From Aplysia californica (taxonomy: Eukaryota), in contig NW_004797413.1 in NCBI RefSeq assembly GCF_000002075.1, positions 953,455-1,016,548 on the forward strand: a stretch of 63,094 bases of DNA, in the 5' to 3' direction. Positions 1,652 through 60,591 of this stretch are shown here, one piece after another. Every line of letters begins with the position of its first letter. Position 1 is the first letter of the stretch. The translations under genes were made by a program, and so were the position numbers. The notes below the pieces were generated by a model. That model ran no database searches. It was not told the origin of the DNA and worked only from the letters and a program-made list of their open reading frames with translations.

Positions 1652-1687
1652 ACCCAGTTTCTTTGGATTTTCCCCAAAATGCCTTTG

Positions 1688-3906: not shown

Positions 3907-3912
3907 ATCAAA

Positions 3913-8851: not shown

Positions 8852-11800
8852 TCAGTGTCTTCCTCCTCTGCCCCTCCCTCGACCTCTTCCTCCGCGGTGT
8901 CCTCCACCTCCTTGATAACCTCCTCCTCCTCCACCTCCTCCTCCTCCTTGATAACCTCCTCCTCCTCCACCTCCTTGATAGCCTCCTCCTCCTCCTTGAT
9001 ATCCCCCTCCCCCTCCTCCTTGATATCCCCCACCTCCCTGGTACCCANNNNNNNNNNNNNNNNNNNNNNNNNNNNNNNNNNNNNNNNNNNNNNNNNNNNN
9101 NNNNNNNNNNNNNNNNNNNNNNNNNNNNNNNNNNNNNNNNNNNNNNNNNNNNNNNNNNNNNNNNNNNNNNNNNNNNNNNNNNNNNNNNNNNNNNNNNNNN
9201 NNNNNNNNNNNNNNNNNNNNNNNNNNNNNNNNNNNNNNNNNNNNNNNNNNNNNNNNNNNNNNNNNNNNNNNNNNNNNNNNCCCCCTCCCTGATAACCCCC
9301 TCCTCCTCCACCTCCCTGGTAGCCCCCGCGGCCACCACCACGGAATCCTCCACCACCCCGACCTGCAACACAAGACAAGTAAAAAAAAATTAGAACTCAT
9401 GTCACTAACAGAATACACAACATTTTTTAAGTTTTACATGTAGCGGGTAGTAACAGTTTTTTTTAAAGTTTTTTTTTGGGGGGGGGGGGTGGCAAGTGTT
9501 TTATGGCCCTCGCAACTGCACAAGGTCATATGAGCGCGCAGGTTTTTGGTTGGGTTTTTTTCGGGGGGGGGTAAGGGTATTACAGCGCTCGCAACTGCAT
9601 AAGGTCATATGAGCACATGGGACACATCAAATATTTGTAGTAACAGTTTAACGGCACTTGCAACACAAATAAGAGTGTATGTCCAAATCACCGAAATGGT
9701 GTGTGTGTGTTTGTGTGTGTGTGGGGGGGGGGGGACTTAACAGACCCTCAATAAGGTACAAACTAGTAGAGACATCAGGGTCTTCAACATTTCAGCAATG
9801 CATACATATTATGTATAGCCTGCTAAAAACATTTGAATGGTAAACTTCCACAGTCACAAATTGTGAATGTTTAAGTACAGCATAAATTTCAAAGATGGTT
9901 ATCTTATCTGGATCAGCATTTCTGTTTAAGAAGGTTTAACTCTTAAATATACAGCAAACCTGCCAGTTCAGCCAGTTCACGACAATGTTCCATTGTTTAC
10001 TGGGGAAACAAACATTTACCAAACCCCAGCAATTTCTTGCTATCTAATATCAAACTGTATGTTTATTACTCAGGTCATTCATTTCCACTCAGTTTGGTGT
10101 TTAATTTATGCAAAGAGATTAAACAGGAGTGGAGTTATAGAGAAGTTTGTGATGCTGCAAACTTGGGACGACAAAACTGGCTGTGTACAAAGGAGAGATA
10201 GCCTATCGTATACGAAGAGTTAAAGCACAACATAAAGGCAGATATAACTCACCCCCAAGCCAGCATCTCTTCATGAAGCCTTAAAGTGCAAGAAAAAGAC
10301 AGAAAATAACTCACCCCCTGAGCTGGCATCTCTCTTCATGAAGCCTTAAAGTGCAAGAAAAAGACAGAAAATAACTCACTCCCTGAGCTGGCATCTCTCT
10401 ATGAAGAGAAGGCTTAAAGTACAAAAGACAGATGTATAACTCACCCCCAGAGCTGGCATCTCTCTTCATGAAGGCTTAAAGTACAAGAAATAGATCAGAT
10501 ATATAACTCACCCCCTGAGTTGGCATCTCTCTATGAAGAGTAGGCTTAAAGTACAAAACTAGAGAAGACATATAACTCACTCCCTCATCTGGCATCTCTC
10601 TAAGAAGAGAAAGTGTTAAGTACAAAACTAGAGAAGACATATAACTCACTCCCTCACCTGGCATCTCTCTAAGAAGAGAAAGTGTTAAGTACAAAACTAG
10701 AGAAGACATATATCTCACTCCCTGAGCTGGCATCTCTCTAAGAAGAGAAGGCTTAGAGTGCAAGAAAAAGACAGATGTAATACAACTCACCCCCCGAGCT
10801 GGCGTCTCTCTTCATGAAGGCTTAGAGTACAAAAGAAAGACAAGACATATAACTCACCCCCTGAGCTGGCGTCTCTCTTCATGAAGGCCGGCATCTCGGG
10901 TGGGGGAGGTTCCAGCTCCCAGGCACGCCCGCCTCTGTCTGGCACCTGGCGTCACAAAACACAATGGACAGTTAGTGACTTGTTTGTTTTAGTAGAGGTT
11001 TTACGGCGCTCGCAACTGCATAAGGTCATATGAGCGCCAGAAGATTAGAGGTGTTACAAGAGAGTAACAAACATAAAAAAGAAGAAGGGGAGATAAGGAC
11101 GATAGATGTTTGATAGGAAAGAAGAAGCAGACCAAACCAGAGCACCCGCCAACCACCCAGTTAGCGAGTTGATTTAGTTCAAATTTTAGTAAGAGTTTTA
11201 CAGCACTTGCTGAAGATTAGAGGTGTTACAAGAGAGTAACAAAGACAAAAAAGAAGGGAGAGATCAGGATGATAGATGTTTCATAGGAATGAAGGAGCAA
11301 ACCACACCAGAGTACCCGCCAACCACCCACATTTTCGTAACGTCCAACAACTTGTATTTCCAAGTGGGGCATAAGATAACACTTGTTATTACAAAATTAT
11401 CGAATTGCTCACTAGTGGACAATATTGCCCAGGTCAGTATGCTAGGCAGTAGACAAAGCACTTTCATATCATAATCCAACATTTGGGCACACTAAAAGTG
11501 GACCTTTTGACAAACTTACCCGGCCAATGAGAACTTTGTTTATTGCACATTTACTCCTCTCTCTCGCCTCTCCACTGCTCGTTTTCTGCAGTCTTGTTAA
11601 ATCTGAAAAAAATAAAATAGATGATGAAACTGCAATGTAGTCTAGGAGTAGGAGGGGGGGAAAAAAGCCAGTCACAGCAAGTATTACGAAGTTGGGAAGC
11701 ACAAACAGGAAGAAGCAACGCGTACATACAGTAGAGTCCACTTGAACCTAAATATGCTGGATCACCCGCTGTTTTATCTTCGGTTTATCCAGGTTTTCAG

Positions 11801-14800
11801 TATGGAGAAGTAGCTCCGAAAACAAAGAAAAAAAAATTGGGGATTCTATTTTCTTTCAACTTACCGCTATTTTCGGATTAACCAAGTTTAGTTTAAGTGG
11901 ACTCCATAGTACAAACAATTTTATGAGATGGAAAAGGGCTCACATAGACAGCACTAGAAAATAAGACTTGTGTTCATGTAAATATTTCACAAAATTCATG
12001 TAACATTCAAGATGGTGTGGTTAACATGTAACACCCCACAAAAAGTAGTTAATGCTTGTGATCCCTCATAAACATTCCATAAAGTCAAGTTAACGTTTCT
12101 TTACCCACATACATAACGTTCCATAACCTATAATTCACATACCATCCCTCGCGGCAAGAATTTGCGGAACTCCAACATTTGTCTTGGACACAAGCAGACG
12201 TCGGATCGGCTGATAGACTCCTGCTATCTTGTTGTCATTACTCTGTCAAAGCAAAAAAAAGGAAAAATGAAGATGACATTTTTTACTCTGAAAAAAAAAA
12301 AATCAAAATAATTGCATAGCACAAATGAAAGAAAGAAAAATGTACAGTACACAAGGATAGATAATTATATGAACATGATAAAACTATCAATACCATAAAA
12401 GCCCTAGAAAAAAAAGACCATGTTCCATTATGCTGCCATAGCAAACACTCAAAAACTGTATTGAACAAGACCAACTCATAGAAACATCTCACTCACTCAG
12501 TGACCATCCCGCAAATGTCAAACTTTTGCGCTACTACACTCCCAATCTGCAAGACCCCCAGTCACAAAATGTTCTTCAGCTTCAGATAAACACTATTATA
12601 AATTTTGAGTAGCTATGTCGTTATGTATTTACAAGAAACTAAAAGAATGTCACAGCCAAAAATGCTCACTTTTTAATTGGAACAGATCAGGACATGATAC
12701 AATTGAAATTGTCTAAGAAGCTTTGAAGGCCGCGCATTGTCGAGGAGAAAAGTGGCTGTGTTAGACAGGTAGACATCTTGGACAGCATCATTATATCCTT
12801 ACAAAAGAGAATAAATGCAGGGGGGGGGGCAGGTAAGAAGTGGTTTTTGAACCGGTGATTGTCTTGGGCAGGTGACCACTTGAGCAGGTTCGACTGTAAT
12901 AAGTTTATAACATTCAAAAAGCGGAAATTCACATCACCATAGAGCCAATGAACCAACGGCTCACAGCCACAAAGATAAAAATTAATTAAAAATACTATTG
13001 AGAGTTGAGATAACTATCAACAGAAAGCACAGCATCAAGCACAGACCACAGCAACAAACACCAATAGGGCAGGATTACAGGAAGAAGGGTCTAGCTGTAC
13101 CTTAGCCTTGTCTGACCACTTGAACGACTGAATGGTCACGTCTAGACGTTTGAGCAACATCTCCCGTCTCACGCGGTATTCGTCCGACAAGATGTCGTTG
13201 ATGGCCAAGATGTGAGTCCACTGTTTGTCCGATAGCCGAGTCTTAAGTAAGGGTTTGCCGATCTGGTTGGGATACTTGGACATGAATTCCTTCACCTGGT
13301 GATGAGAAAGGAACACTTCATTGTCAATAGGGGGGACTGAAATGGAAATCTTAACAACAAAAAAAGGGATGGATCTATAAAGCTGTCCCCGTCGTTTTAT
13401 GCAAGAAAAATTCTGAAATTATGTAAACTGAGAACAAAAATGTGAAATTATACGATTCTGTTAATTTTAACAAAGAAGGATAAAGGAAAATATTCAGAAA
13501 TTATGCCAAAAATGATCAAATTTTACTAAATTATGTGGGGTGCATAAAACCACGGGGACAGATAAAGTGAGTTGCAATGGTACTGGCTCTATTATTTCAT
13601 GAAACAACATCCAGATAAGACAAAATACAGATCCAACTAAAAGGAATAGAGCTCATCGGGGTGCCCATTAACCAACAAAAAATCATTCTGAATCGCAGAA
13701 AGAGGGTAAAATAAGAAAACATTAGGGTACTGCTTTCCCCCTGGGAAAGAGTAAGTTTAGAGATTTGGTTAACTATTTGTCTGTTCAAATCTGTCTTCCA
13801 AAGTTGGGATCATCGCAGATGGCACACATCCATAACTGCCCCCCTTTCTCCTATGGATCCATCTCAAAGTCCATCTGCTTGTAATTCCAATTAGAATCTG
13901 GTTGGAGATCCATCAGGCAGTACCACACCAGTTGTTGAATTTTCCTGCTCCCCTACAGTTCTCCCTCTCTCTCAAAAGACTTGTTCAACCCTATCCATAT
14001 GACCTTAGGTCATTTTGTACCCCCCGCGGTTGTATTCTTCACATTTTAGAATACCTCTAGTACGAAGATCTCTTACACTGAAACTTTCAGTATTTCTCAA
14101 AAAAACATTTTGACACACTGCTATGCAAAGCGTACGGATCGGATTAACGAGTAAACTTCCTCTTTGAAAGTGGTGGCACAGAGTTCCCCACGTCGTCTGG
14201 ATACGATAGTAAAACACAACGTACAGATTGGGTTGACTGCCCAATAAGAGCAATGGGGTAGGGGGGGGAGGGGGAGTACATTTTACTGTCCCCGTGGTTT
14301 TATGCACCCCGCATAATTTAGCAAAATTGTATCATTTTTTGCATAATTTCTGATTATTTTCCTTTATCATTCTTTGTTAAAATTAACAGAACTGCATAAT
14401 TTCACATTTTTGGGCTAAGTTTGCAGAATTTCAGAATTTTTCTTGCATAAAACAACGGGGACAGATTTAAACTGGACAGAAGGTGAGACAAAAACAGACG
14501 AGGCCAAACCTTGCTCTCTATCTTGCTGAACAGCTGAAAACCTGTAATATTGGGAGGAGGCTTGGAAAACTTCAGAGCCATCAACATTTCTCTCAGAGAC
14601 TTGGCCACTTCGCTCTCACTCTGAAAGACAAAGGGAAGAAGAAAGAAAAATGTCATTGCGTGCTGAAAGAGTCGGTTTCTCACATGAGCCTCACATAAAA
14701 CCTGTAGATGAAATAAACTTTGTCGGAAGTTCTAACCTTTATCCATACTTATTCTTCGCTCCCACTCTGAACGACAAAGGGAAGAAGAAAGAAAAATGTC

Positions 14801-17800
14801 ATTGCGTGCTGAAAGAGTTGATTTCTCTCATGAGCCTCAGTTAAACCTGTAGATGAAATAAACTTTGTCGGAAGTTCCAACCTTTATCCATTCTTACTCT
14901 GCTGGTGCCTCTTGTTTTGTCTAATGTTCCTTTTTTTGGGGGGTGCTATGTTAATGATTTTATTTGTATGAGACAATCATTGATTATGGGAATGTGAGTA
15001 AGTACAATGATATTTCAATATTAAGATGAAACAATAAAAGAATATAAATAAGAACGACTGAATATGTTCTGCTGGAGCTGAATTTTACATGACAGAGTGT
15101 TTCTTTTATTTTGGTTTCTTTCTTTTCATCACCGAATGCCTTGAGTAGCACCAACATATTTACTGGTAAGGCCCCAACATTTCCATACTAAAGTACAACT
15201 GATTAGAAATTGGGAATACAAGATAAGATAAACTAACATCAAAGCATGGCAGTTTAAGTCAAAAGAATAATAACTCCCCCCCACCCCCTTAATTTATAAC
15301 TACTTGACCTTGTTGTACACATTATCTGGGTTCACCACGGAGTTATTGTGAAGTTGCAGTTAGGTTTTACACGATACAGAAAACAGATGGCTGTGATCGT
15401 CATGAGGTGCAAAAAAACACCCCAGACGGGTGGGGTATGCTTTGAGTTTATCACTGTTTCCTTAACAAACTAGAAGAGAGCTTATCAGGCCCTACTAGAA
15501 CACTGAACCGTCGACTAGTTCACAATACAACAGAGCAAGTTAGCACTGGTTTCTGAAACTACCCCTGAACTAGAAGAAGAATGTCAGCACTGTACAGAAA
15601 CATACCACAGCAAAGTGCGATTATACTTTTCTTGCTTTAAGAATTTGTTTTTGTAATCTAACACCTTTCCATAAATTCAAACTCTTGAAATACTGTAAAA
15701 ATCCATTAATTTATTGATACATGAACACATCAATTCTCACCGGCTCTGCGACCTCCGTTGGTGTCTTCGACAATGATGCTAGGACTGCGGGCTTTTTCGA
15801 TGCTATCATCTTCACACTAGCCAGCTCCGTAAGCAAGTAGTCTGTTAAAGAATAAAAAATAACCAACATGTTGTAGCATTTTGTAATCTCAAATCAGAAA
15901 TAACAAAAACATGGTTACTACATTACTTGAAAATTCAACACACTCAGGACATATAATAAAAATCCAAGTTGAGTATTACAGAACTTTAAAGAAATTAATT
16001 AATCTAATCATCCGACCAATGTCTTCAATAGTGAAAAAACTTGTCACATCTTCCCACGCTAACCAGGACACCCAGTGACTGTTGTTTCAATCATAGAAGT
16101 ACAAGTAAATATATACAGTGGAGTCTGCTTAAACCAAAATCATCAGGACCGCCGGACTCTTAGGTTTAGAGAGATTACTTGTCTTACAGAAAAGTACTCC
16201 TTAGATCCTGTCAGTCCTGAACTCTGTTCCTCTCCTTACAAGGACAGGGGATGGAAAAACTTCACCAGGCCTGCCGACCACTCCATGATCAAAATTATGA
16301 GTTTCCCTCAGAAAGCAAATAAAGTTATGTATTTTCACATTCTTTCTGTTACGTTATATTCGATCTGACAGAAGTGCAATTCAAGAAAAAAAAGATCAAG
16401 ATTTTATGGAAATCAGATTAGAATTCTTCAACAATCCCAAAAAAATTTTCTAATTATATTTTTTTTAAATTGGAGAACTGTCTTTCTCAGAATGCTTGGC
16501 AGGTCTGTTTCTCTAAAGCAGTACCTTGGCACACAACCTGACCTACAACATTTATCTCATTTAACACCTCCTATCATTACCTGTGGGAGCTACTACCTCA
16601 CACTTACCAAGGAGCTGTAAGCAAGACTCTTTGGTTGCCAATCGACCTTCAATCGGACCTTGCGTCAAAGTGGAATATGGGCAGGCTGATAAAAGAAAGA
16701 AATTTTCTTATTACAAAAGATGATAAAACCAGCCTGGACAAATAAATAACTCGGGCAAACGTAACAAAAATAAAAAAAATTGTACAGAAATGAAACAATA
16801 GACACATCTCCAGTAAAAAAAATAACTTTTTTCCATCTTCTCCTACAAGGTACTTTTAAACCAAAAAAAAAGAGTATTAGATGAGAAGTACATTAATTGG
16901 ATGAAATTTAATGACAGACTGAAGTCAATTTTTTCACTACCAGAGAAGTAGCCAGAAAAGTAATGACTGCATAAAAGCATCAAATACACTTACAAAATTC
17001 TCGCAAGAATCCACTGAGCTCCATAAGAAAGTTGTCTCCATCTCCAGGTCCTAAGGAAAAATAAAGAATTGTCCCATTTTGTTGGTAAGAGCAATGGCCG
17101 TTTAAATTAAAGAATGGAAGACCACATTTTAAAAATAAATGCTACAAAATGTAGTGTAATAGAAGTTTATTAGTTTCTCAAATTTTCTTTCAGCATTTTT
17201 ACAAAAATAGACACAAAATTATGCAATTGAGATCTCCAACACAACCTTACAAAACTTCGTAGAAGTTTCATATTTTTGCTTCTATAATTAATAAGAGACT
17301 AAAGTCAAGTCTCATTTCAGAAACAAAACCCTTTCGGCGTGCCCCGTTGATGCCTTTATCTGCCTTGATCACTGTAGAAATGTGACAGACCTTTGATTAA
17401 AACCACCCAACAACAGCGACTTTTTAAATTATCCACGTATATAAATGCAATTTTAAAAAAAGACTTGTCCGTTGATGAAACTGGCCGATATAGGAGACTT
17501 TAAAAACAAATCAAACTGACTTTTTAAAAGGTACATTTTCAGTAACAGTGAAAAGAAAGCCCCAAACATCAATACTGTCGAACCTGTCCCAACCAACCAT
17601 TACTTGTCCAGGACAATCACCCGTACAAATGACTACATCCCGCTTCCCAGCATTACAATGACACTGTGCAAGATGTCTACCTTTCTAAGACAACCACTTT
17701 TCTCTTTGCCAATGTGTGGACAGCTTGGAAAAATTTAAACTGTATTTGTACAAAAATTTGACAAGAAGGATAGGAAACATGTATACCTTGGATAGCTGAG

Positions 17801-18936
17801 ACCTTCTCATCGATGCCACAGAAGGCAGCGAGCTGAGAGACGATCCATTCTACCAGCTCTGTGTAAGCCACAGACTTAGCTCCTGCCTCAGCAGCCTCAT
17901 TGAGTGCACTCCCATCCAGCAGTGGCCCCGAGTACCTGGCTCACAAATGAATTAAGATTTTTGTTCATTAAAGTAAAGTGAATGCAATTTCTTCCTCTTG
18001 TCCCTACTACAGACAAGAGGCGTGGGCAGTAAATAAATGCAGTTTATTACTAACAGCTGCAAAGTGATGAAAGGTAAAGGTTGCTATAAAATTCTGTGTT
18101 GCAGCAAGGGTGATGTATACAACTGTCCACTTTTGTTTACACAGCATCTGGGTTTGTAGGAAAAAAGTGAAAGCCTCAAAGCTGAGCTTCCTCCCACACC
18201 ACTCGTCACCATATTATATTTTATATATCATTACACAATCAATTGAAGAAGAACATGTAGACTATATCAAATAAGGAAATTAGGTGACAACTCAGCAGTG
18301 ACTACCTAGCCTGGTTGATGTTAATCGCTTCCCGTTAGTAATGTAACGCTTCACATACAATATTACTACTACCGAGTAATAAGAATGGACCAGCAGAGGC
18401 AACTGACTACCTAGGCTACTCGGCTAGGATACTCGTGATCATCAATACTACCTGACTTGACCGAGTCTGTTGAGAGTCATTTGGCATAAATGCATCTATA
18501 TCAGTCACTGTCAGTATCAGCCACAGGCCCAGCCCTAGTGATTTCTAACTTGGATGACAATCCAATGTCAATAGCATAGCCCTAGATTAGCTATGACACA
18601 AGTGACAAAATGGCATTCTTTCTCAAGTAGGCAAATAAACATAATATTTCTCATGCAAAAAGTAAAAGTATTATTTAATAACTAATCAATCAAACTACCT
18701 TTTAAAATAGTATAGATTCTAGACCCTAGATCTAGACTAATGTAGTACAAGTTAATACCAGTATCATTATGATGTCAAGTAGCCTAACTGTAAAAGACCC
18801 TCTAGACAATACTTCATACGTTGTTGACTTGTCATTCAGTTTACCATCAAGAAGAACAAGAAAAGAAAAGATAGTCTATTCAGTCATGAGGTGCATACCC
18901 TAAGTCTTCTAGGGAATCAAGGATGTCGTTTTCCAT
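8852..18936 (-). CDS. FAM98A: FAM98A/B-family protein (DUF2465; tRNA-ligase-complex subunit family) with Gly/RGG/GYQ-rich C-terminus
   Basis: Coding exons (minus): 18899-18936, 17787-17935, 16994-17050, 16608-16685, 15741-15841, 14510-14620, 13101-13295, 12143-12242, 11520-11602, 10858-10945, 8852-9362 (N-gap 9048-9280 inside). All introns GT-AG and phase-consistent. Translation MENDILDSLEDLGYSGPLL...KPPPNIT...EYRVRREMLLKRLDVTIQSFKWSDKAK...TSSGEARERSKCAINKVLIGRVPDRGGR...EPPPPEMP matches recalled FAM98A/B. The A/B/C paralogue assignment is not resolved here. Confidence 0.95.
10220..10890 (-). repeat. 62-72 bp tandem array (10 units) built from the FAM98 exon-10 3' end and its splice donor
   Basis: GTGAG donor copies begin (minus strand) at 10857 (authentic), 10790, 10718, 10649, 10580, 10511, 10444, 10379, 10314 and 10252. 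Confidence 0.95.
10981..11328 (-). mobile_element. Two adjacent family A1 copies (10981-11159; 11184-11328, internally deleted)
   Basis: Both end ...CCCGCCAACCACCCA on the plus strand; the first has a degenerate TSD GTTAG(T/C)GA(C/G)TTG. Confidence 0.9.
11729..11909. mobile_element. Tc1/mariner-type MITE (TA TSD); related ends at ~16115 and ~33921-34085
   Basis: TA-CAGTAGAGTCCACTTGAAC ... GTTTAAGTGGACTCCATAG-TA. Confidence 0.7.
13383..13561. mobile_element. MITE family D, 6-bp TSD
   Basis: TIR CTGTCCCCGT(C/G)GTTTTATGCA; TSD ATAAAG on both sides. Confidence 0.85.
14286..14464. mobile_element. MITE family D, second copy, inverted relative to the 13383 copy
   Basis: Same TIRs; the internal sequence is the reverse complement of 13383-13561; flanks ATTTTA / ATTTAA. 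Confidence 0.85.
14608..14900. repeat. 146-bp tandem duplication spanning the FAM98 exon-6 splice acceptor
   Basis: CTTCGCTC(T/C)CACTCTGAA(A/C)GACAAAGGGAAGAAGAAAG... at 14608 and 14754. Confidence 0.9.
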
Positions 18937-19219
18937 GCTAGCGGAGAGACTGCTTGAATGCGGGACAAACAATACCCAGAAAGGTTGGGGAGAGTATCAA
19001 AACTCTTGGCAGTGCTAGATCTATCAGTTTTTCACACAGCAGACCAATGTTGATCTGTTGGTGAGGAACCGATCCACTCCACCGGAAGTAGCATGTGGAA
19101 TAAAGCAAACCTGAAATTTGACCAATGAACAGGAGGCTGGAATTCACTGCGTTACTACGTTTCTAAATGTTCAACAAATCAAAACACAGTCAAACAGTTT
19201 GTCCGCATTAGTAAACAAG
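18937..19219. promoter_or_regulatory. Compact bidirectional promoter between FAM98 and PSMD8
   Basis: Only 283 bp separate the divergent ATGs; ETS/GABP motif CCGGAAGT at 19082-19089; CCAAT at 19044 and 19122; YY1-like AAGATGGC over the PSMD8 ATG. Confidence 0.8.
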
Positions 19220-21310
19220 ATGGCAGCCAACTTGAAAGAGATTGTCGGAGTGTACCAGAATCTCAAGCGAGTTTGGGATACAAAGCCGCCCAATCTTGAT
19301 AAAGCTGGCGAACTTCTTTCTAAGCTCAAGGTATCAATAAATATGTTCTGTATGGATCTAAAGATCCTGGTTAAAAATATGTGTTGTGTGTCCTTATGTC
19401 AAATGTATGAATGCCTTTTATACCCGTCAGAAACTCAAATTTGCCGTGTCACTTTCATTTTGTCTTTCAGTCTTCTTACGTTCATACTTCAGACTTAATT
19501 ATCGTTCTGATTTAAAATGTTACACCCAGAATGTCTAGATCTAGAAGATCGAGATATCTAGTTCTAGATCTAGCTGTAAACTAATGGAAGCGGCATTTAG
19601 AAAATAATAAGTAGTGCCCAGTGCCCTAACATAGCCACTGTGACTGTCACACTACCGTAGACTACCGCGTAGACTACAGACTAGACTCTAGTCTAGACTA
19701 CCCAGACTGGTGGTCGGCCAGTACTTCCTCCCACTATTATTACTGCTGTGTAGCCTACTTGCCTTCCACTTCAGTTTCTGTGTCAGTGCAAGTAGAAGAG
19801 TTCCAACCAATTTTTTTTTTAATTGCCTTCCTAGCTTTCACAGCTGGTCTAACAAATCCTGCCGTTAGTAGTAGAAACTCTGGCGATTTTGTAGTTTCGT
19901 TCTTTAAAGTCAAGAGAAGGGGGTTTCAGGGGGGCTTGACCTAATACAAATATGTAGGTGGGGGGTTCAGGGGGGCATGCCACCCTGAATTTTATACTAA
20001 TTTGATGTTTTGCAGTTAGGTTGCATCCCTACTCCCTTGTGTAGCCTAATTCGAATAGTATTTGGTCTTCAAGACTTCTTGATTTCTTCTCTGTATGTAA
20101 ACAAATGGATCGTGGACTTAAACGAACGGAACTACAAGATCACCGAAACTCTTTGTATAGAGGCTATTAACCCTCGGGTTTATATGTCACGCGATAAGCC
20201 TATTTCGGCACTATGCCTGCGTTCTGGTCCTGCGTCTGTCTAGCCCCTGGCTCAGCGCACACCTGCCGAGCACCATCTCCCCTTGCATTCGGGTCCTGAG
20301 TCGGATCCGCATTCACGTAGCTCAAGTGTGTGTGCGTCAGTCTGCTTGAGTTTGTCTGCGTTTGTGGCCTTCTTCTTGAACCGCCTTCGTAACTGAGGCA
20401 TACGTCTCATTCAAAACATGCCAAGTTGGTAGCTCTAGATGTTCGTCAAATGAAATTATAGAAGAAATTGGCCCACTTAGACATGAGGAGTTCAAAAGGA
20501 TATAGTCAGGAAATGAGCTTGATTTTGTATGAAATGATACTACCTGATAAAAAATAAGCTTATTTGATAATTTTGAATACCATTGTGCAGGTACAAAGAA
20601 CAATTTGAGTGCAGAACATTCGGAAATTGACCTATAGTGTCCCCTTTCGAACCCCAGGTCATTCATAACAACAAGAGCGTCTAGAAAGGTTATTCGAACG
20701 GGCTTAACTGCTCGTAATGTCTTATCAGCTTATGAGAGGGGGTTATTCATGTGTTTGTAACACTTTATAAATAGAAAGCTATGAAAGATAGAGCGTTATT
20801 TTCATCGTTGATTAACGCACTCCAACTGTATTCATGGCGAAACACACGTTTCCCGGCGCGCGCGTGGGCTGTACACCAACAGTACACACTGAGTGACCCC
20901 GGCGGCCCGCCCGGAACGTCCGACGTAATCGGTTGCTGATAAGATTCGCATCTCAGCACAGACGCAGGACAAGAGTTAATCCACCCTATCCTATAGCCTA
21001 CCATAATGGGAAGTGGCTATTTTCACCGGTGAGAATAAAAATATTATCGACTTCTCTCACCGGGTGAGACTTGCCAGCATTCGCTATTCTCCCCCGGTGA
21101 GAAACAAGACCTATTTTTCCTAATTACTCAATGCTTTCTATCGGTATGAATGATCAAATTGACCAAAAAAAACCCAAAAAATGATGTTTTATAGCACAAA
21201 AGTAAATTAATTTGGTCGTCTACAAAGATGCTACGGCTATTTCACTTTTCTAATCGAGGCGAACTTCACTGGTCACTTTTTCTTTTTGCCTGGAAGTTCT
21301 CGCTACTCCT

Positions 21311-21342
<32 letters not shown>

Positions 21343-39300: not shown

Positions 39301-39730
39301 GGTTTATAAAAAAATTCCAGTGGGCCTACTACTAGATCTATGTCTCTGAAGAACATTTTGCTTGCCTATATTAGCTTTTTTCATGTACATGAAAGCATAG
39401 AATATATAGTTTCACACATATATATGCACAATACTTTGAAAAAGAAAGATAAGGTCATTGTTGTTTTATTTTTTTACGGAATCTGTTTTACGTTGAGAAA
39501 AGCGGTAAAAACAAGTTTTAAAATTTTAAGAATGCCCATAATATTAGTATTAGGAATCCGAAATTACTACCTAGTTGGCTTACTCTTTAATAACCCTGAG
39601 CAGTTAAGAAAAAAAAGACAATGATATAGGATTTGTCTAAATATGACCATTATGACAGGTGTGGCCTAAATAAGGTAAGGGAGGGGGGTTTAGCTTATTT
39701 AGGCCATATGTGGCCTAAATAAGGTCACCC
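36340..39730. mobile_element. Non-autonomous Mutator-like (MULE) element with an internal foldback satellite
   Basis: 9-bp TSD TAAAATAAA at 36331-36339 and 39731-39739; G-terminal TIRs GGG....CTTATTTAGGCCACATATGGCCTAAATAAG; no transposase ORF seen. Confidence 0.8.
38312..39150. repeat. Inverted (foldback) array of ~50-bp units
   Basis: GGATTGGTGGACCCCGGGGTCAACGTAGTGAAATAAGTAGGTTT-like units run to ~38680, then their reverse complements run to ~39150. Confidence 0.9.
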
Positions 39731-48700: not shown

Positions 48701-50903
48701 TGCACATATCTTGATTTCTATTCAAGATTATAAATGGATATTTTTTTCAGCGAAAGCAAAGCAAATGAAGAACCTTTAAGATGACAATAACAACTCCACA
48801 TGCCCAAAAATTGACGAACGCCTGATTCCACCGCGTCGTGACACATATAAAATTGCCAAATACACTGTGCATCAATACTATTTACATCAGTGTAATATGA
48901 CATTTGCATAATGCATAAGTCAGACAAAATCCAGACAATCTCAGAAATCCGGCTACTCAGATCTATCCAGAAAATTGGTACTTCTTGTACAATACAAGTA
49001 AACTCACTCTCACCTTTTCCATTAGAGTACATGGCATGGACACCCTCTGGAATGATGACAGCAAGGGCAGTGCCGACCAACAAACCAGCTCCCAGGACAG
49101 TCACCATTTTCAACTTTTCCTGAACGTAGAAACAAAGACATATATTTCGTTGCATAAAGTAAAGCATAATTTTCCTTCCAAAAAAAATTGTAAGGGGTAT
49201 AAATCTGTAAAATTGCTTGATAAAAGCTTAAATCCAGTACAAGTCTGAATGTTTGTCCCCATAATACCGACAACCATAAAAAATTGCAATGTAGCATTAA
49301 TCTAATTAAATTCAGGAGCTGTGCAGGTGTAAAATACAAATTTAATAGAGAGAAGGATCACTTGCTCAGGCCAAAGCTAAATATCTTGCGTGATCTCTCC
49401 TTCTGAAGTTATCCGTTAGGTTCTTCCATGTTCTGTTCATATACATCGAGGTTTTAGTTTCATGACTAGCTTTTATGTAGTACAGTCTGTGTCATTTCCT
49501 CTACGCTCTATTAAGAATCTAACATTTTTCTGGGATTCAATTTGGGGGGGGGTGTATTCAATTAATTATTCATCATTTGAATTTGGAATTTCTCCCACTT
49601 TATGTTTGCAATTTCCAATTGGAATTCGTTTCCAATTTGAGTGTGGAGGAGTACATCATGTTCAAATAGTTAATTTTAGACTTCATAGAGTAAAGTTACC
49701 AACAAGACCTCAGAATTATGTATGAAACTGACCTCAGAATTATGTATGAAACTGAAAGCAAAGGAGATTGTAGTCTTGTTTCTTTGTTTTAGTAGAGGTT
49801 TTACAGCGCTCGCAACTGCATTATAAGGTCATATGAGCGCCAGAAGATTAGAGGTGTTACAAGAAGAGAGTGTTACAAACATAAAAAAAGAAGATGGGGA
49901 GATAAGGATGATAGATGTTTGATAGGAAAGAAGAAGCAAACCACACCAGAGCACCCGCCAACCACCCACATTGTAGTCTTGTGAAGTCCGTGTTTGTAAG
50001 ACATTAGAATCTAGAATCTAGATGATAAAAAAATAATGAAGCTACAGCGAGTGCAAGCACCTAGATCTAGATCTAGCAAATCCCTGTGACTGGCCCAAAT
50101 ATAGATGACGTTATTCAAGCACCTTTTCTTGTCGTCTTCTGGGGCTTCCCCCAAGACTATTGGGATTCCTTTGCCGGTAACTATTGACTAGATCTCGCCA
50201 TCTTTGGGGTTGGGTTTTTTTTTGTATTAATTTGTGTTGTCTTTTATATAAACAATCTCAGCAATTCTCATTCCAAATTTACCTTCTTCTTCTAAAAGTT
50301 GTACACGCACACACACTCAAGCACAAGCACGTGAGCGCGCGCACACACACACACACTAACACACAACAAGCGCGCACACACATTAACACACAACAAGCGT
50401 GCGCACACACACACCCACAGCCATAGCAGTCAGCGATGAAACCTAGATCTAGATCTAGATGTGAAGGCAAAGCGGGCCCGCCACGGGCCACCCACAGTGA
50501 GTATTTCTAGATTTCTAGTTAACTTGCGAGGGAAGCCCTGGAAGACGACAAAAATAGACGGCAGAAATACGTGTGCTAGGTGTGCTAGGTGCTCCCTGTA
50601 GTTTCATGTAACAGAAAACAATAGAAGTAGAAACACAACACAATCACAAAATAACAATGTTTGAAGAAAAACAAAACAATCACAATGACTGTGACTGTGA
50701 GAGGATGTGAGAGATGAGGATAAAAAGACTCATTCGATGTTGAAGACTTCAAAAATGCATTCTGGCTAATGATGTGTAATATTCACGTACAGTATATACA
50801 TATTTACCTCAGATAACGTTATTGTTAGGGGTATAACGCCAGCTAAGTAACATCCTACGAGCATAGCAAAAGATAAGCCAAGGAGGGTTACAGCTTCATC
50901 CAT
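45792..50903 (-). CDS. SLC39A9: Zinc transporter ZIP9, 327 aa
   Basis: Exons (minus) 50808-50903, 49014-49119, 47871-48185, 47279-47364, 46580-46714, 45792-46037 (984 nt); intron 4 is GC-AG. Motifs [93 protein letters not shown]-terminal GHKH*. Confidence 0.97.
46088..46303. repeat. 39-bp minisatellite, ~5.5 copies, just upstream of the SLC39A9 last-exon acceptor
   Basis: Unit CAAAGTTCAACATGAAATAGA(T/C)G(C/A)GTGAGGATGTAGGT. Confidence 0.9.
48475..48845. mobile_element. MITE family B copy
   Basis: TGTGAGGCAGTGTGGTGAAATCAGG ... CCTGATTCCACCGCGTCGTGACACA. Confidence 0.85.
49780..49969 (-). mobile_element. Family A1 full-length copy
   Basis: 13-bp TSD ATTGTAGTCTTGT on both flanks. Confidence 0.92.
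50128..50552. mobile_element. Putative MITE with an internal CA-rich tract
   Basis: Inverted ends TTGTCGTCTTCTGGGGCTTCCC / GGGAAGCCCTGGAAGACGACAA. Confidence 0.55.
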
Positions 50904-51469
50904 CTTTATCGTTTTTCACACCAGAACCACGTACATGTTTTGGTTGTTACGCTAGATGGCAGGTGTGGCTTCCGGTGAACTATATAGACATAAATTCTGT
51001 GTAATTCTTGCTTCTTGGCAGCTCCTAATAAAAATGCTTTTCCCCTTACCATTATCAAACTTATATTTGTAGAGTTTCTATTAACCCATATTCTAAATAA
51101 AGTTATCACATCAGAATGAAAACGTTACTCTTATTCAAGAAACAGAATTTAAAATTTCACGAATTTTTGCTAGCTTTGAAACCATAGGTGTGAATATAGC
51201 CAGCTTCCTCTTCTTAGTCGATGATTGTATACAAATCCTCTGCTTGACGTTGACAGTGTGTCTATAAACAGCCTAAGAACAATGGTATGCTTACTGGCAG
51301 TATTATGTATTGTTTTGAAAATTGTTGGCAAAATGAATAGCTTGATGCCCATTTGATTAGAGGATCAATTTGTGTTCCAAACAGTAGTTACAGAGCCCAA
51401 GAACGCCGTAATCCCAATATCGATAATACCCTCCTTGTTCATGTTCCGAGAACACATGAAACCAAAAGT

Positions 51470-51860
51470 AATCAATCGTGCCCACGTCGTGACGACGTGA
51501 CTGCATAACTGATCAGGGAAAGCAGTGAAATTGATCTCTGGAAACTTTAATATGTTGCTTGGGTCTTCTGATATATCATTGGGGAGGAGTTCCGCAGAGG
51601 GCGCCACTTAGCATGACAAGGTCCACTGATTCAGTACTGATTATAAACTAGAGTAGGCCCGCATCACCGCGCTACTGTTTTGGTGCGCAACCCCCGGTCT
51701 CCTGCTTTGTTTTGGATAAGAACAGCGAAAACGAGGTCATTTTCTGTGAGCATGCGCAGAATGCAGCTTATTTCACTTTCGTTTTGGAGGTTCCTGTCAA
51801 CACACGTGATTCTACGGTGTCGGAAAGTTTTGCCCCGTCATTTCATATTAATGGTTTTCG
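51470..51860. promoter_or_regulatory. Probable shared promoter region of SLC39A9 / ERH
   Basis: CpG-rich; CRE-like CACGTCGTGACGACGTGA (~51483), CTCF-like CCGCAGAGGGCGCCA (51592), NRF1-like GCATGCGCAG (~51750), E-box CACGTG (~51803). The TSS cannot be determined from sequence. Confidence 0.45.
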
Positions 51861-53795
51861 TAACCGGTATCGATCAATTTACTAAGCGCTTGAGTAGTCG
51901 ATTATTTAGCACATCTAGCTAATCTAGCTCTAATGTATCGTAGAATGTATACTAGAATCGATAAATACTATCGCAGGCTGCTTCTTAATGCCCAGGAACG
52001 TGCTAGATAGGGTTGCGCACTGAAGCGGACCAAATTTGGGCAGTCCGTTTCGTGCGCAATATCGGCTTTTTTGCTATTTGGCATTGATAGTGTGGCTTCT
52101 AGGCCCTTTGTTTGTTTTACTTATTAAGTTATTTCTCTATGACCTGCATTGTGCACTGAAACAGACTGTTTTCCTTCCATTTGGATGCATTATATTGCCA
52201 TTGGAAGATGATAAGTTAATGTATTCATGTCAAAATTAATTAATATGGAAATATAATCTCCAAAATGTTCAATTTCTTCTTTTCATGTCTTTTTCTTCTT
52301 CTTTTTTGCCCTTTTCCTTAAAGAATACTAGTCTAGGTATAGTCTAATTCTTGTTTTCTTCTTTCACTTCCTTGTGTCCACAGCACCTTTCTTTTTCAAT
52401 TTCTTCTTTTCACGTCTTTTTCTTCTTCTTTTTTGTCCTTTTCCTTCTAAAATACTAGTCTAGGTATAGTCTTATTAAGTTTATTCTTGTTTTCTTCTTT
52501 CCCCTTCTTGTGTCCACAGCACCTTTCTTTTTATCCATTATTATCAAAACACATACACAAGGTGTAAGGAAATCTCCTGTCAGGGGGCGCCCAGCTCCCA
52601 AAAAGAACACGCCTAATTGACCTTGGCCTTCCATTATGGTCAGTACAGGAACTTCTTGCAAGGAAAAGAAGACAAAGCAAGGATAGAGAAAGATGAAAAG
52701 TGTCAGAAAAGAGCTAGATCTAGATCTAGAGCTGTAAACTGTAAACATGGTACTATTGCGCACCCAACAAGACGATATGTTGCACCAAACCAGAAACCTT
52801 GCGCACCAAACCAGACACACGTTACCAAACAAACACCACCACAACATATAGAAATTTTAAACTGCTGTTACAGTAATGCGCTACACCGTATAGAGAGGAA
52901 GTTTTTCTAACTTCTGGTGAAAAAATCATGAAGATCGACCTGTAACTTCCAGAGATATCCACAAAAGATCGCTTACTGTATATCGCACCACAGGATGTAC
53001 TCTAGTAGGGCCACCTCTAGACTCTAGATCTAGATTCTAGATCTAGACTCTATATAGAATCTATTCTCACAGCCGTTAAACGTAGAAAAAAAGCATCTTT
53101 CTGATTGGCTGCTAATTTTAGTACTGAACTGTGATGTCATCACTCCCTGGGATACCCACATGGAACGACGTGTTTTCGGTAACATTTCGGATTTCCTAGA
53201 TCTAATCTAGATTCTAGATAAACCCGGTCCCAGATCTAGAATCTAGATCTAGATATCTAGAGATCTAGATTCTAGAGATCTAGATAGTAGGCCTACTTGG
53301 ACATGATGGAAGACCGCACAAAAATTGCCGTAAAGACGCAGGAGGATCTAGATCTAGATTAGATCTACACCCCCCCCCCCCCCCCCCCCCCACCCTCCTG
53401 CATTTTTAATCACTAACATTTTTTTTTTTTTAACAACAACTTCAAAGCCAAAGCAACTCTACAAATTAGGCCTATAACTATATGGGACTTGGTCAGTCGG
53501 GAGGAAGAGAAGAGAAAAAAAACAACTGTCCGGGACTGGGATCGAACGGCTTCAAAAATCATTGCACGACTTCAAACGCAGACTCGCTGTCGATTGAGCC
53601 ATCAGAACTTCCAAGAGATAGGTACCTGTGTAGATTAATCATGATATTCATGATAGACACTTCCATCTTTGGTGCCATGTGGTTGGCTATACTTAGATGT
53701 AGTCTCGTGATCGGAGGGATATCCTGGTCTGACGTCAAACAAGATGGGCGCCTTACCTAAAAATAGTTTGCGTCTTTCTACGTTTAATCGCATGT

Positions 53796-54560
53796 TATTC
53801 TCACCCCGGGTGAGAATAGCGCAGACGAGTCTTTTGGCTATTCTCACCCGGTGTGCACTCACCGTTAGAGCCTAGATCTAGGCCAACAAATTTTGCGTTC
53901 ACCCTGAACCATAGAATTTTACACTGTGATAACAGAACAATTGTAGAATTCTGTGCCTTGAACAAACGTTCCATTACTACTGTTAGTCTAAAAGCGTACA
54001 ATTTTGTCTGTGGGCAGTGGAGAGAGAGAGAGAGAGGAGTAGTACGAGAACTTCCAGGCAAAACAAAATGGCGACCCGCGTAGTTCGGCTCCATTCGAAA
54101 AGTTAAATAGCCGTAGCATCTTTGGAGACGACCAAATTGATTTACTTTATTGTGTTTTTACATCATTTTTTTACTTTGTTTTGGTCAATTTGATCGTCCA
54201 CACCGATAGACAGTATTCAGAAAGAGTCAGAGAGAGAGAAGAGGGGAGGAGTAGATCTTGCGAGAACTTCTGGGCAAAACAAAATGGCGACCCGCGTAGT
54301 TCGGCTCCATTCGAAAAGTGAAATAGCCGTAGCATCTTTGTAGACGATCAAATTAGCTTACCTTTGAACTATAAAGTAAAGTAATTTTTTCTTTGCTTTT
54401 ATCCATTCGATCATCCACACCGATAGAAAGTATTCCGAAATTAGGAAAAACAGGTTTTGTTTCACACCGTGTGAAAATAGCCAACGGTGGCAAGTCTCAC
54501 CCGGGGTGAGAGGTCGATCGTATTTTTATTCTCACCATGGGTGAGGATAGCCACTTCCAT
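53796..54560 (-). mobile_element. Family C element, second copy, with an internal ~210-bp duplication
   Basis: Reverse-complement match to 21008-21620; the block GAGAACTTC...CAAAATGGCGACCCGCGTAGTTCGGCTCC occurs twice. Confidence 0.75.
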
Positions 54561-56590: not shown

Positions 56591-57503
56591 AGCTGCATAT
56601 TTTTTATAGATCTTATAATGTGTTGAGATGATTGATGAAGCCATTTTTCCTCTTGAAGTAGGTCTAGAATATATAATATTTGTTCAAATGTTTTCAGAAT
56701 TTTACTTACCCAACACAACTTTACTTTAATTATTGAATACCTGGAAAGTGCGTAAACTAGGTATCACAATCACAGTAGATGTCTAAATCTATCTTTTAAC
56801 TTTTTATTATATAATTATATAATTTTAGGTGAATTAGTTGTATATAACATAACATCATGTAGTGTGTAATCATAGTATATAGTTAGGCTACTGTCTGTGC
56901 ACAGTGTGTAGTGTATGTATTCTGTCGCTATGTTAAGTTTTATCTTCTTCATTAAACCTTAATTGTTATTAACGTTGACTGTTATAGTAAGCTATAAAAA
57001 CTTTAGTATGGTTCTGCTCCTGGCAGTCAGATTTAACGTGTAAGAATGTCAGCACAATTTTCAGTGGTTTTATTTGTGGTAGCCTACGTAGTAGGCCTAC
57101 TTCAATAAAATTGGAGCTGTCCGTCTTTGTTTTTTGGGCCTTTTTTTTTTTTGTCTGCGGAAGAACCCCCTTCAGATTTACATGATGTATAAAAATCTGA
57201 GTCTTCGGGGGTTCTGGAGGCTACGATTATTTTTTTACCCCAAACTCAAAGTTTTAGGGAGAACCTTGAGGAAAAGTTCCATTTTTAGTCATGAGGGGAC
57301 CAACATGTCTGAGGTTATGTTTGTCCAAAAATTTTAGGTCCATTCAATGATTATTTTTGTGTGTGTGTTCGTGTTTGTCTGTGTGTGTGCAAGAGAGAGA
57401 GAGAGAAAGCGTGTGTGTTCATGTAGGTATTTATCATGTGGCAATAAGTTTCTCTCTGTGAAGATTGTTAAAATCTTATAAAATCTCTAATCTTTTTTTT
57501 CAG

Positions 57504-60500
57504 TCTCACACAATTCTCCTTGTGCAGCCGAACCAAAGGCCAGAGACGAGGACATACTCTGATTATGAGTCTTTAAATGAATGTCTGGAAGGTAAGAGCT
57601 AGGCCAGGGCAAGATCGACTCTGGGATCGATTCTTTCGAGTCCAAATGAGGACTCAAAGAATCGATCTTGTTCCCAGACTCTAAGCTTCGAGTCCGCCCA
57701 GGGTCGATGCCTCCCGTCTCCTTTTTTTTTGCCTGATTCCTAGCCTAGACTCCGAGAATCGAGGCAAGAATCTAGATCTCTACCGCACTATTACAGTCCT
57801 GTCGAGTTTTCCGCTTCAAAACAGACACCGCACCAGGACAGGACTGATCCGGCGCATAAGGCGGCTTCTTTGATGTCGGCCTAGGCGGAGTTAAAAATGC
57901 ATTCCAAAAATTTTTTAAATATTGATCTAATTTAAGAAATAATAAGATTTTCGTGATCAGCGACCCAAAATTAGCAAAAATTACGCGGGGAACCCAATTT
58001 AAAGCCCGATTACCAAGTTAAATTAATTTTTGTGAGTTTTGTTTACTTATATGTTTTTTGTTTTTTTCGCTATTTGAATTTGGCGTGCACTAGGCCTTGA
58101 TACATGTATCAAGAAAAAAGAGAAAGAGAAAACAGGGTTAGGTCAGTCATACTGTCCCACCGATGTTGTAGTAATTCACAACTGCTCGGGACCCAATGCA
58201 ACAAAAATGTCACGTCCCAATAATAGGTGCGGTACATTACACTCTAGTTCAAAGGTTTCAAACGTCAGACGGGTCTGTCCCGGGACGAACTTTCGTAGGC
58301 CTGCTGAAGTAGGGGCAAGAAACTGCCAGTCAGTCACTATATCAATTGTTTCACACAACCCCACACCCCACCCCACCTTCCTCTTCCTCTTCCCCGCTAT
58401 GAGTGAATGCTAAACTAGGCCTAGGCCTACTTGTCGTGTCTACCGTGTAGCCCAGTACGAAACCACGCTGCACATAGGCTACTGCTACTTTGAATGTTAT
58501 TGCCCCACCCCCGCCCATCCCAAATTAAATCATTCACTTCCCTTTTCTCTTTCTTTTGTCTTGAACATTAAACGCTTGCTTTTGAATTTCCCTGCACTTT
58601 CATCGTCACTGTACACGTATTCTTTTGTAAATCATATTGTGTGTTTTGAGTTGGTATCAATGAGTCATCATGTCTGGACGTCGATCTTTAGCTTCGGACT
58701 TTTTTTATAAGCTGGAAAACACAGTACTGTTGTTTGTATGATTTGTTTGTAATAATATTTTGGCATACAATAACACAACGTCGACAATAACAAAACATTT
58801 GTCATCAAAGCATGCTTTGACGTATCAGGAAGCAAAGGGTGCAAGAGAGAAGGAACCTGTGCCCCATGCATTGGCAAGAGTGATAAAAGGGAGGCAACAC
58901 ACACACACACACCCACACATGACACACACACGCAAACACACACGACACACACACACACACACACAAATGCGTGAAAGCCAACTTGTCTCTTAGCACGCGC
59001 GCAGGCTTAGCCAGCCACTTCTGTCAAACTCAAGAATCGAGGTCTCATCTTAAGAGCTATTTTTAGCAGTGTTCAAGACTCGAGGTCTCGATCTTAAGAG
59101 CTATTTTTAGCAGTGTTCAAGACTCGTGGTCTCGACCTTAAGAGCTATTTTAGCAGTGTTCAAGTCATGGCCTCTAAACAGCCCACTTGAAGCAGCTTCC
59201 AAAATCGAAAATCGGACTCGATTCCTCGATCTTTTTTCAGTTTTGGGATCGAGGCCTCGAGTCTTTTTGTCGTCGATCTTGCCCTGGCCTAGTAAGAGCT
59301 GGTCTTAAAGTTACATTGTATTGCCTTTCTAAGTTTTTTGTTAGTGAGTGGGTGCTCCGGTGTGGTTTTTGCTTCTTCTTTTCTATCAAACATCTATCGT
59401 CCTTATCTCCCCTTCTTATTTTTTATGTTTGTTTACTCTCTTGTAACGGCTCTAATCTTCTGGCGCTCGTATGACCTTATGCAGTTGTGAGCACCGTAAA
59501 ACCTCCACTAAAATTTTTGTTTGTGAACAAATTACTTTACTACCTCGGAACATGCTTGTTTGCTCCCTTTTTTCCATGTCTATTACGACTATTTTTATAG
59601 CTCTGAAATTCTCACATTAACTTATAATGTTACGAGATTTCTATTTCAGGTTTATAAAAAGCACTTGGGAATATAGGCCTACTATACATTATAATGTTTA
59701 TATTGTGTCCTGACACTTTGGGATCAGGTGCTTCTCCATTTTTTGTGCATATGGCCATAAAGCTAGTTCATTTGTTTCGCTCAAGATGAAAAAAACCCAT
59801 CTATCTTGACTGGAAGTCGAGATGAAGGATGTTGGGGGTTGCCTGGTGTAAGATATAATCATCATCATTGTTATCATTGCCTTTCTCACCCTGGATCAGG
59901 ATATAGGCCACCAAGAAAACCCTTTGCACCTTTTCCTATCCTGGGTTAGTCACTTGATGTCACTCCTTGTCATCCCTCTTTTCTGTACATCCATTTCCGT
60001 GACTCTCCTCCAGGTTCCATGTGGTATTCCCCTTGATCTTTCACCCTGTGGGTTCCAATCTTAACACTTTCCTTGTTATGCAGCTGCTTGAGAGATATAA
60101 TACTATTGGGAAAATGACTGCCAAAATTTGCCGACTTCCAAAGCTTGAATGTCCTTGGAAATTGCAAATTTACATTGTTTGGTGCCTTTGACACGAAATA
60201 TGTTTTTAAGTGGACATAAAAGACTGAGCCCCCCTCCCTAAAAATTTGAAAACGGTTACCCAGCAGGCCGGAAAATTTTTGTTTCTTCGGTTTCGTTGTT
60301 TGACGAGCATCTGATTTCACCACGATACCACTCTTTTATATATTATTTCTATCAGTAAATTACTATGTAATGTTAGTAATAATTTTTTGCCCCTGAGTTG
60401 GAGGAGAGAAATAAATTTTATCTCAAAACATAGAGAGTTCACTTTCACATATTTGCTCATTTTCCCACAGGTATCTGCAAAATCTTTGAGGAGCATTTGA

Positions 60501-60591
60501 AGAGACTGCACCCCCACGATCCATCTATCACATACGATATCTCACAATTGTTTGAGTTCATCGATCAGTTGACAGATCTTAGCTGCCTGGT
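57504..60591 (+). CDS. ERH: Enhancer of rudimentary homolog (partial: exons 2 and 3)
   Basis: Exon 57504-57591 ([30 protein letters not shown]) and exon 60471-60591 ([40 protein letters not shown]), GT-AG and phase-consistent. The ATG-bearing exon 1 is not firmly located (ATG|GT candidates at 51851, 52636, 52747). The final exon (PYNKDWIKEKIY-like) was not found and presumably lies beyond the window. Confidence 0.95.
57600..59291. mobile_element. Non-autonomous hAT element inserted at the ERH exon-2 splice donor
   Basis: 20-bp TIR TAGGCCAGGGCAAGATCGAC; 8-bp TSD GTAAGAGC at 57592-57599 and 59292-59299; internal ~40-bp repeat x3 at ~59040-59165. Confidence 0.9.
59344..59512 (+). mobile_element. 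Family A1 copy
   Basis: Near-consensus body and stem-loop tail. Confidence 0.85.
59860..60092 (-). mobile_element. 5'-truncated RTE-clade LINE 3' end (fossil ORF C-terminus plus tail)
   Basis: Minus strand encodes [50 protein letters not shown] (RTE C-terminal signature, with one frameshift and one stop); (ATG)n tail; TSD AGATATAAT at 59851-59859 and 60093-60101. Confidence 0.85.

What the first reader, a model, noticed from the sequence alone, without database searches (positions are those of the whole stretch)
8852..60591. FAM98-PSMD8-SLC39A9-ERH: two head-to-head pairs that may preserve a pre-vertebrate gene block
Seen: the order is FAM98(-) PSMD8(+) SLC39A9(-) ERH(+), with no other recognisable gene between them. 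Established (recalled): human ERH and SLC39A9 are head-to-head on 14q24.1. PSMD8 and FAM98C are near neighbours on 19q13.2 (GGN and SPRED3 between). 14q24 and 19q13 are paralogous segments (ACTN1/ACTN4, ZFP36L1/ZFP36, NUMB/NUMBL). Inference: this invertebrate keeps in one piece an ancestral bilaterian cluster that vertebrate genome duplication and reciprocal loss split.
Basis: partly seen in the sequence, partly recalled or inferred. Interest (0 to 1): 0.7.

Follow-up and report, generated by a model that had tools for sequence, protein, structure and literature searches.

The report
Two old gene pairs, joined later
The sea hare carries two old head-to-head pairs of housekeeping genes side by side, but in limpet, apple snail, bivalve, annelid and ribbon-worm records the two pairs lie hundreds of gene numbers apart on one chromosome, so the four-gene block is likely a later join in one snail lineage, not a pre-vertebrate relic.

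Summary
The order FAM98(-) PSMD8(+) SLC39A9(-) ERH(+) is real, with no fifth gene found; the window's proteins match Aplysia californica 100%. The ancestral-cluster reading is not supported. By accession and locus-tag order, PSMD8 and SLC39A9 share a scaffold in 9 of 9 heterobranch gastropods (consecutive in 4). They are 321-4824 numbers apart in 8 of 8 other lophotrochozoans with comparable numbers, and on one chromosome in 17 of 17 chromosome-scale non-heterobranch assemblies. In an annelid contig the gene behind PSMD8 is ATG8-like. Each pair is old. ERH-SLC39A9 is already tabulated as an ancient co-regulated pair (PMC7530604, Table S2). FAM98-PSMD8 is adjacent in two bivalves, head-to-head in that annelid contig and five accessions apart in a centipede; I did not find it in print. 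Best reading: two bidirectional-promoter pairs from one ancestral linkage group, joined tail to tail by shuffling within the chromosome in early heterobranchs. The 14q24/19q13 paralogy follows from that shared chromosome. Amphioxus could not be tested. The scan had not noted this block before; two earlier notes on a shark ERH copy were used as a lead only.

The parts
8852..18936 (-). FAM98 (single invertebrate FAM98A/B/C homologue), 11 coding exons, RGG-rich tail with an N stretch at 9048-9280
   Evidence: GT-AG exon chain; Pfam PF10239; PDB 9i8v_D FAM98B, E 7.8e-15
18937..19219 (.). 283 bases between the FAM98 and PSMD8 start codons; predicted shared bidirectional promoter with an ETS-type CCGGAAGT motif near 19083 (motif name recalled)
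   Evidence: sequence; motif count; AT skew changes sign here; no start-site data
19220..29338 (+). PSMD8 (Rpn12), 8 exons, 266 aa
   Evidence: PDB PSMD8, E 1.4e-14; identical to XP_005097023
29339..45791 (.). 16.5-kb tail-to-tail interval: the join between the two pairs; holds both 3' UTRs and repeats, no gene found
   Evidence: strong minus-strand RNA pile at 43.7-44.1 kb fits the SLC39A9 3' end
36340..39730 (.). 3.39-kb young non-autonomous DNA transposon with terminal inverted repeats and a 9-base target-site duplication (Mutator-like by that length; label recalled)
   Evidence: about 30 places at 96-99% over its left 1.5 kb among 30 candidates scored; ends and duplication
45792..50903 (-). 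SLC39A9 (ZIP9), 6 exons, 327 aa; one GC donor
   Evidence: identical to XP_005097024; two spliced joints seen in RNA
51282..51284 (+). predicted ATG-only end of ERH exon 1, 379 bases from the SLC39A9 start
   Evidence: ATG followed by gtatgc, the same donor as FAM98 intron 1; no RNA depth in this bin in 4 of 4 runs, so unconfirmed
51648..53005 (.). 1.36-kb dispersed repeat whose family is transcribed; likely inside ERH intron 1, not a separate gene
   Evidence: RNA depth 31-137 on the minus strand; 38 other places of 1.1 kb or more at 91-98%
57504..60591 (+). ERH coding exons 2 and 3; the last exon is at G000:C143:1016648-1016742, 100 bases past the window
   Evidence: Pfam PF01133; full reading to the stop

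Best explanation
The block is two separately old head-to-head gene pairs, FAM98-PSMD8 and SLC39A9-ERH, that likely came to lie tail to tail through a rearrangement inside one ancestral chromosome in early heterobranch gastropods. Each pair is likely held together by a short shared promoter, because a break between the two starts would disturb both genes; this is inferred from spacing and from published pairs, not measured here. The join between the pairs is convergent, 16.5 kb long and takes transposon insertions, so nothing points to a constraint on it. Both pairs map to paralogous human segments because genes stay on their ancestral linkage group while their order mixes.
For: PSMD8 and SLC39A9 share a scaffold in 9 of 9 heterobranchs with both records: consecutive numbers in Aplysia, Biomphalaria pfeifferi, B. 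glabrata and Elysia chlorotica; 3 tags apart in Bradybaena; the same 0.6-0.9 Mb scaffold in E. marginata, Plakobranchus, Lymnaea and Physella. They are far apart in 8 of 8 others with comparable numbers: Pomacea 606, Patella caerulea 514, Sinanodonta 321, Tegillarca 386, Pinctada 329, Crassostrea angulata 1705, Owenia 979, Tubulanus 4824. They are on one chromosome in 17 of 17 chromosome-scale non-heterobranch assemblies and on different scaffolds in 5 of 5 fragmented ones. Annelid contig L028 shows FAM98(-) 1.15 kb from PSMD8(+), then an ATG8-like gene and no ZIP9 or ERH in 9.7 kb. FAM98-PSMD8 is near in 4 of 6 named species with both records. ERH=SLC39A9 is listed as an ancient co-regulated pair in 3 non-vertebrate species. 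Actinin and Sprouty/SPRED matches are not on this scaffold.
Against: Distances come from accession and locus-tag order, not coordinates; RefSeq numbers (C. angulata, Tubulanus) need not run with position. A second ZIP9 copy beside PSMD8 could be missed where only one copy was in the top 120 hits. No amphioxus, hemichordate, echinoderm or cnidarian distance was obtained. The next gene beyond FAM98 is presenilin, whose human copy PSEN1 is also at 14q24 (recalled). In spotted gar ZNF541 lies 0.2 Mb from RASGRP4, the neighbour of FAM98C, and unchecked notes place a shark ERH copy beside ZNF541. FAM98-PSMD8 is not universal: different scaffolds in Darwinula, different chromosomes for the Tachypleus copies seen, and no FAM98 in 7.8 and 4.0 kb upstream of PSMD8 in two other annelid loci. 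Shared promoters were not shown.
Confidence: 0.85

Rival explanations
1. The four genes were one tight cluster in the bilaterian ancestor; heterobranchs kept it, other protostomes broke it, and vertebrate duplication plus reciprocal loss split it between 14q24 and 19q13.
For: All four genes stay on one chromosome (17 of 17); both human segments belong to paralogon 3; presenilin adjoins the block; gar ZNF541 is 0.2 Mb from RASGRP4.
Against: It needs separate breaks at the same join in caenogastropods, limpets, bivalves, annelids and nemerteans. FAM98B is not beside the 14q24 genes. The join is convergent and repeat-filled.
Confidence: 0.07
2. The two pairs lay in one loose neighbourhood (tens of genes) of the ancestral chromosome; the heterobranch join is new but was favoured by that closeness.
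For: FAM98C is 0.25 Mb from ACTN4 in human and FAM98A 0.5 Mb from ACTN2 in gar, while ERH-SLC39A9 is near ACTN1 (recalled); FAM98B is 1.2 Mb from ACTN1 in Xenopus.
Against: Gaps of 321-979 numbers in six species with GenBank-type numbering fit unrelated places on a chromosome; actinin and SPRED matches are on other Aplysia scaffolds.
Confidence: 0.07
3. The join is a scaffolding artefact of this gap-rich assembly.
For: Two N stretches lie in the join, and a near-duplicate of the ERH end follows 11.5 kb downstream.
Against: Eight other heterobranch assemblies show the same link.
Confidence: 0.01

Closest known systems
Conserved ancestral microsyntenic pairs (CAMPs; Irimia et al. 2012, PMC3514665), including ERH=SLC39A9 (PMC7530604 Table S2)
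   Same: Unrelated genes, head-to-head, short spacing, shared across phyla. ERH-SLC39A9 is itself a listed member; FAM98-PSMD8 works like one.
   Different: Those are pairs; the four-gene run is limited to heterobranchs. FAM98-PSMD8 is not in the supplement I could search (PSMD8: 0 hits), and the human pair is no longer head-to-head (recalled).
Ancestral linkage groups with within-chromosome mixing (PMC13508932; concept of Simakov et al. 2022, recalled)
   Same: Genes stay on one chromosome across phyla while order scrambles; clade-specific close pairs arise.
   Different: I did not assign the named linkage group; the tables holding it were unreadable or had no gene names.
Vertebrate paralogon 3 (Lamb 2021, PMC8040251)
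   Same: FAM98A/B/C, SPRED, RASGRP, ACTN, ZFP36, LTBP and MIDEAS/ZNF541 are in it, with 14q24 and 15q14 as quad C and 19q13 as quad D.
   Different: Paralogy is chromosome-wide and does not imply adjacency; ERH, SLC39A9 and PSMD8 were not searched for in that table.

Membership tests
CAMP (ERH-SLC39A9) | Non-paralogous neighbours linked in several distant lineages | tested here: met
   Listed with 3 non-vertebrate species in PMC7530604 Table S2 (the species code is not explained); adjacent here
CAMP (ERH-SLC39A9) | Head-to-head with under 1 kb between starts | tested here: inconclusive
   Orientation met; ERH exon 1 only predicted at 51282, no RNA depth there
CAMP-like pair (FAM98-PSMD8) | Linked in several distant lineages | tested here: met
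   Gastropods, two bivalves, one annelid contig, centipede five accessions apart; not linked in Darwinula or for the Tachypleus copies seen
CAMP-like pair (FAM98-PSMD8) | Head-to-head orientation conserved | tested here: inconclusive
   Shown in DNA for the window (283 bases) and L028 (1.15 kb); accessions give no strand for the others
CAMP-like pair (FAM98-PSMD8) | Co-expression from a shared promoter | not testable with these tools
Ancestral bilaterian four-gene microsyntenic block | Inner join (PSMD8-SLC39A9) shared by distant protostomes | tested here: not met
   0 of 8 non-heterobranch species with comparable numbers; ATG8-like neighbour in L028
Ancestral bilaterian four-gene microsyntenic block | Inner join present in amphioxus or another invertebrate deuterostome | not testable with these tools
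   Only PSMD8 records were retrieved for these species
Ancestral bilaterian four-gene microsyntenic block | Retained ohnolog at the predicted place (FAM98 beside SLC39A9-ERH) | tested here: not met
   FAM98B is 1.2-80 Mb from ACTN1 in six vertebrates and on another chromosome in human; ACTN1 is a recalled proxy
Shared ancestral linkage group | Same chromosome across phyla | tested here: met
   PSMD8 and ZIP9 records give the same chromosome length in 17 of 17 chromosome-scale non-heterobranch assemblies, among them an annelid, a nemertean and a spider

The most novel reading that the evidence does not exclude
FAM98-PSMD8-SLC39A9-ERH, perhaps with presenilin, was one cluster in the bilaterian ancestor; amphioxus would still show it, and vertebrate duplication dealt its halves to 14q24 and 19q13, with the shark ERH copy beside ZNF541 as a leftover.
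Probability: 0.07. Interest if true: 0.5.

Novelty: new member of a known kind. Interest (0 to 1): 0.22.

Why it matters
Modestly. FAM98-PSMD8 looks like an old head-to-head pair that I did not find in print: it ties a proteasome lid subunit to a tRNA-ligase-complex subunit (function recalled) in molluscs and an annelid. The PSMD8-SLC39A9 join could serve as a rare genomic marker for heterobranch gastropods. The case also shows that neighbours mapping to paralogous human segments is what a shared ancestral chromosome predicts, and is not evidence of an ancestral cluster.

Tried and rejected
A hidden gene at 36.7-37.7 kb (ETS-like motif, TATA-like box, change in AT skew) is a 3.39-kb transposon. 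A hidden transcript at 51.9-52.8 kb (strong RNA pile, 59-codon frame) is a 1.36-kb dispersed repeat; the Atlas could not read the frame. No RNA holder on record was listed for the query stretch; three same-species raw-read runs and one contig set were laid instead, on 42.3-56.0 kb only. A short PSMD8 exon query found only 4 proteins. The PSMD8 family search of the own genome rang nowhere, although the gene is there. The 365-aa centipede PSMD8 record is an internal repeat, not a fusion with ERH. Of 150 FAM98 representatives listed, 12 were looked up; 6 species had a PSMD8 record and the rest were dropped. Of 36 metagenome PSMD8 loci, 5 had over 1.2 kb upstream of exon 1 and 1 showed FAM98; none showed ZIP9, ERH or presenilin. 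Literature searches: ERH+SLC39A9, 5 papers; PSMD8+FAM98C, 3 papers; by title and abstract start, none treats either pair or the block apart from the papers cited. Supplements not seen that may list FAM98-PSMD8 or amphioxus positions: PMC3514665, PMC13689697, the main tables of PMC13508932. The readable supplements of PMC13508932 and PMC8809688 hold none of the gene names.

Full report
Observation. The four genes are there as described. Exon chains with canonical splice sites (one GC donor) give FAM98 (18936-8852, minus), PSMD8 (19220-29338, plus), SLC39A9 (50903-45792, minus) and ERH (57504-60591, plus, last exon just past the window). Pfam and PDB confirm the families. The PSMD8 and ZIP9 models are identical to named Aplysia californica proteins on a contig of the same length as G000:C143. 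The FAM98 and PSMD8 starts are 283 bases apart. The ERH start exon is only predicted, at 51282; RNA did not cover it.

Nothing else was found inside the block. Rfam gave 0 hits. An exon scan trained on these genes gave no convincing chain. Pfam found nothing new in 25 window stretches. Two gene-like signals were followed and proved to be repeats: a 3.39-kb element with inverted ends and a 9-base duplication at 36340-39730, and a transcribed 1.36-kb repeat at 51648-53005. RNA was laid only on 42.3-56.0 kb.

Method for synteny. No other animal genomes were searchable, so I used the contig lengths, locus tags and accession numbers attached to homologues. The method returns the known order for Aplysia (XP_005097023/24) and three in a row for Biomphalaria pfeifferi (KAK0046897-99). 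It is indirect, gives no strand, and is weaker for RefSeq numbers.

The inner join. PSMD8 and SLC39A9 share a scaffold in 9 of 9 heterobranchs with both records: consecutive in four, three tags apart in Bradybaena, and on the same sub-megabase scaffold in four. Outside heterobranchs, 22 species had both records. In the 8 with comparable numbers the gap was 321 to 4824: Pomacea, Patella, four bivalves, Owenia and Tubulanus. Nine more share a chromosome with no distance measured. Five fragmented assemblies (Lottia, Haliotis rubra, Nucella, Nymphon, Araneus) have the genes on different scaffolds. All 17 chromosome-scale assemblies put them on one chromosome. One metagenome contig gives direct DNA: L028 groups with annelids (100/97) and carries an ATG8-like gene, not ZIP9, behind PSMD8.

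The two pairs. ERH=SLC39A9 is one of 52 ancient co-regulated head-to-head pairs in Table S2 of PMC7530604, conserved in 3 non-vertebrate species. FAM98-PSMD8 is consecutive in B. pfeifferi and Sinanodonta, two tags apart in Potamilus and five UniProt accessions apart in Strigamia. It is unlinked in Darwinula and for the Tachypleus copies seen: 4 of 6. L028 shows it head-to-head at 1.15 kb, while two other annelid loci lack FAM98 within 7.8 and 4.0 kb. Human PSMD8 and FAM98C are two genes apart and in the same direction (recalled; the SPRED3 and FAM98C positions are). I did not find this pair in print, but the CAMP supplement was unreadable.

The vertebrate argument. Lamb's tables put FAM98, SPRED, ACTN and ZFP36 in paralogon 3, so the 14q24/19q13 paralogy holds. 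Reciprocal loss from a four-gene block predicts FAM98B beside SLC39A9-ERH. Instead it is 2.5 Mb from ACTN1 in chicken, 1.2 Mb in Xenopus, 18 Mb in gar and on chromosome 15 in human (ACTN1 is a recalled proxy). Some facts lean the other way. Presenilin is the next Aplysia gene beyond FAM98 and PSEN1 is at 14q24 (recalled). Gar ZNF541 is 0.2 Mb from RASGRP4, and unchecked notes put a shark ERH copy beside ZNF541. A shared chromosome explains these too. Actinin and Sprouty-family matches are not on this scaffold.

Mechanism. Shown: gene order, spacing, the narrow spread of the join, the wide spread of the pairs and of the shared chromosome. From the literature: 5'-5' pairs are the most conserved class, with short spacing and co-expression (PMC3514665), and clade-specific close pairs arise by mixing within chromosomes (PMC13508932). 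Inferred: shared promoters hold each pair, and one rearrangement after the caenogastropod-heterobranch split (fossil minimum 390 Ma as cited in bioRxiv 2026.09.02.748897) set them tail to tail. Any two given pairs on a chromosome of 800-2500 genes touch with a chance of 0.08-0.25%, but every rearrangement makes such joins, and this one was noticed after the fact.

What I saw of each paper. PMC3514665: passages and section 5. PMC7530604: passages, supplement part 1 and matching rows. PMC8040251: listing and supplement rows. PMC13508932: passages; supplement search without hits. PMC13689697: term search of the main text; supplement unreadable. PMC8809688: supplement search without hits. bioRxiv 2026.09.02.748897: passages.

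Verdict. One pair is already known, one is a likely addition to a known class, and the four-gene block is likely heterobranch-specific. Amphioxus remains the untested case. Interest 0.22.

Noticed in passing
L016:3144-6065 and L015:7340-7513 (last exon about 2.5 kb before the window): Presenilin on the plus strand is the next gene beyond FAM98, tail to tail; human PSEN1 is also at 14q24 (recalled).
   Followed up: partly
window 36340-39730: Young high-copy non-autonomous DNA transposon with inverted ends and a 9-base target-site duplication; it contains promoter-like motifs.
   Followed up: partly
window 51648-53005: A 1.36-kb dispersed repeat (38 other near-full places at 91-98%) with strong one-strand polyA RNA signal, splice-like sites and a 59-codon frame; an expressed repeat family of unknown class.
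   Followed up: partly
window 53796-54558 and 54825-55560: Two more dispersed repeats of about 0.75 kb between SLC39A9 and ERH exon 2.
   Followed up: no
L005 and L006 (G000:C143 about 1,016,600-1,034,600): An 11.5-kb near-duplicate holding a second ERH last exon with an in-frame stop and a copy of an unidentified minus-strand gene (175-aa frame, no Pfam hit); tandem duplication or uncollapsed haplotype.
   Followed up: no
window 10260-10860: Diverged tandem copies of the 3' end and donor of FAM98 exon 10 in the following intron.
   Followed up: no
L018-L022: Further neighbours: a family-8 glycosyltransferase, a weak AhpC/TSA match, and three near-identical copies of a small signal-peptide-like frame without Pfam hit.
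   Followed up: no
L028:11827-12027: ATG8/LC3-like gene tail to tail with PSMD8 in an annelid contig.
   Followed up: partly
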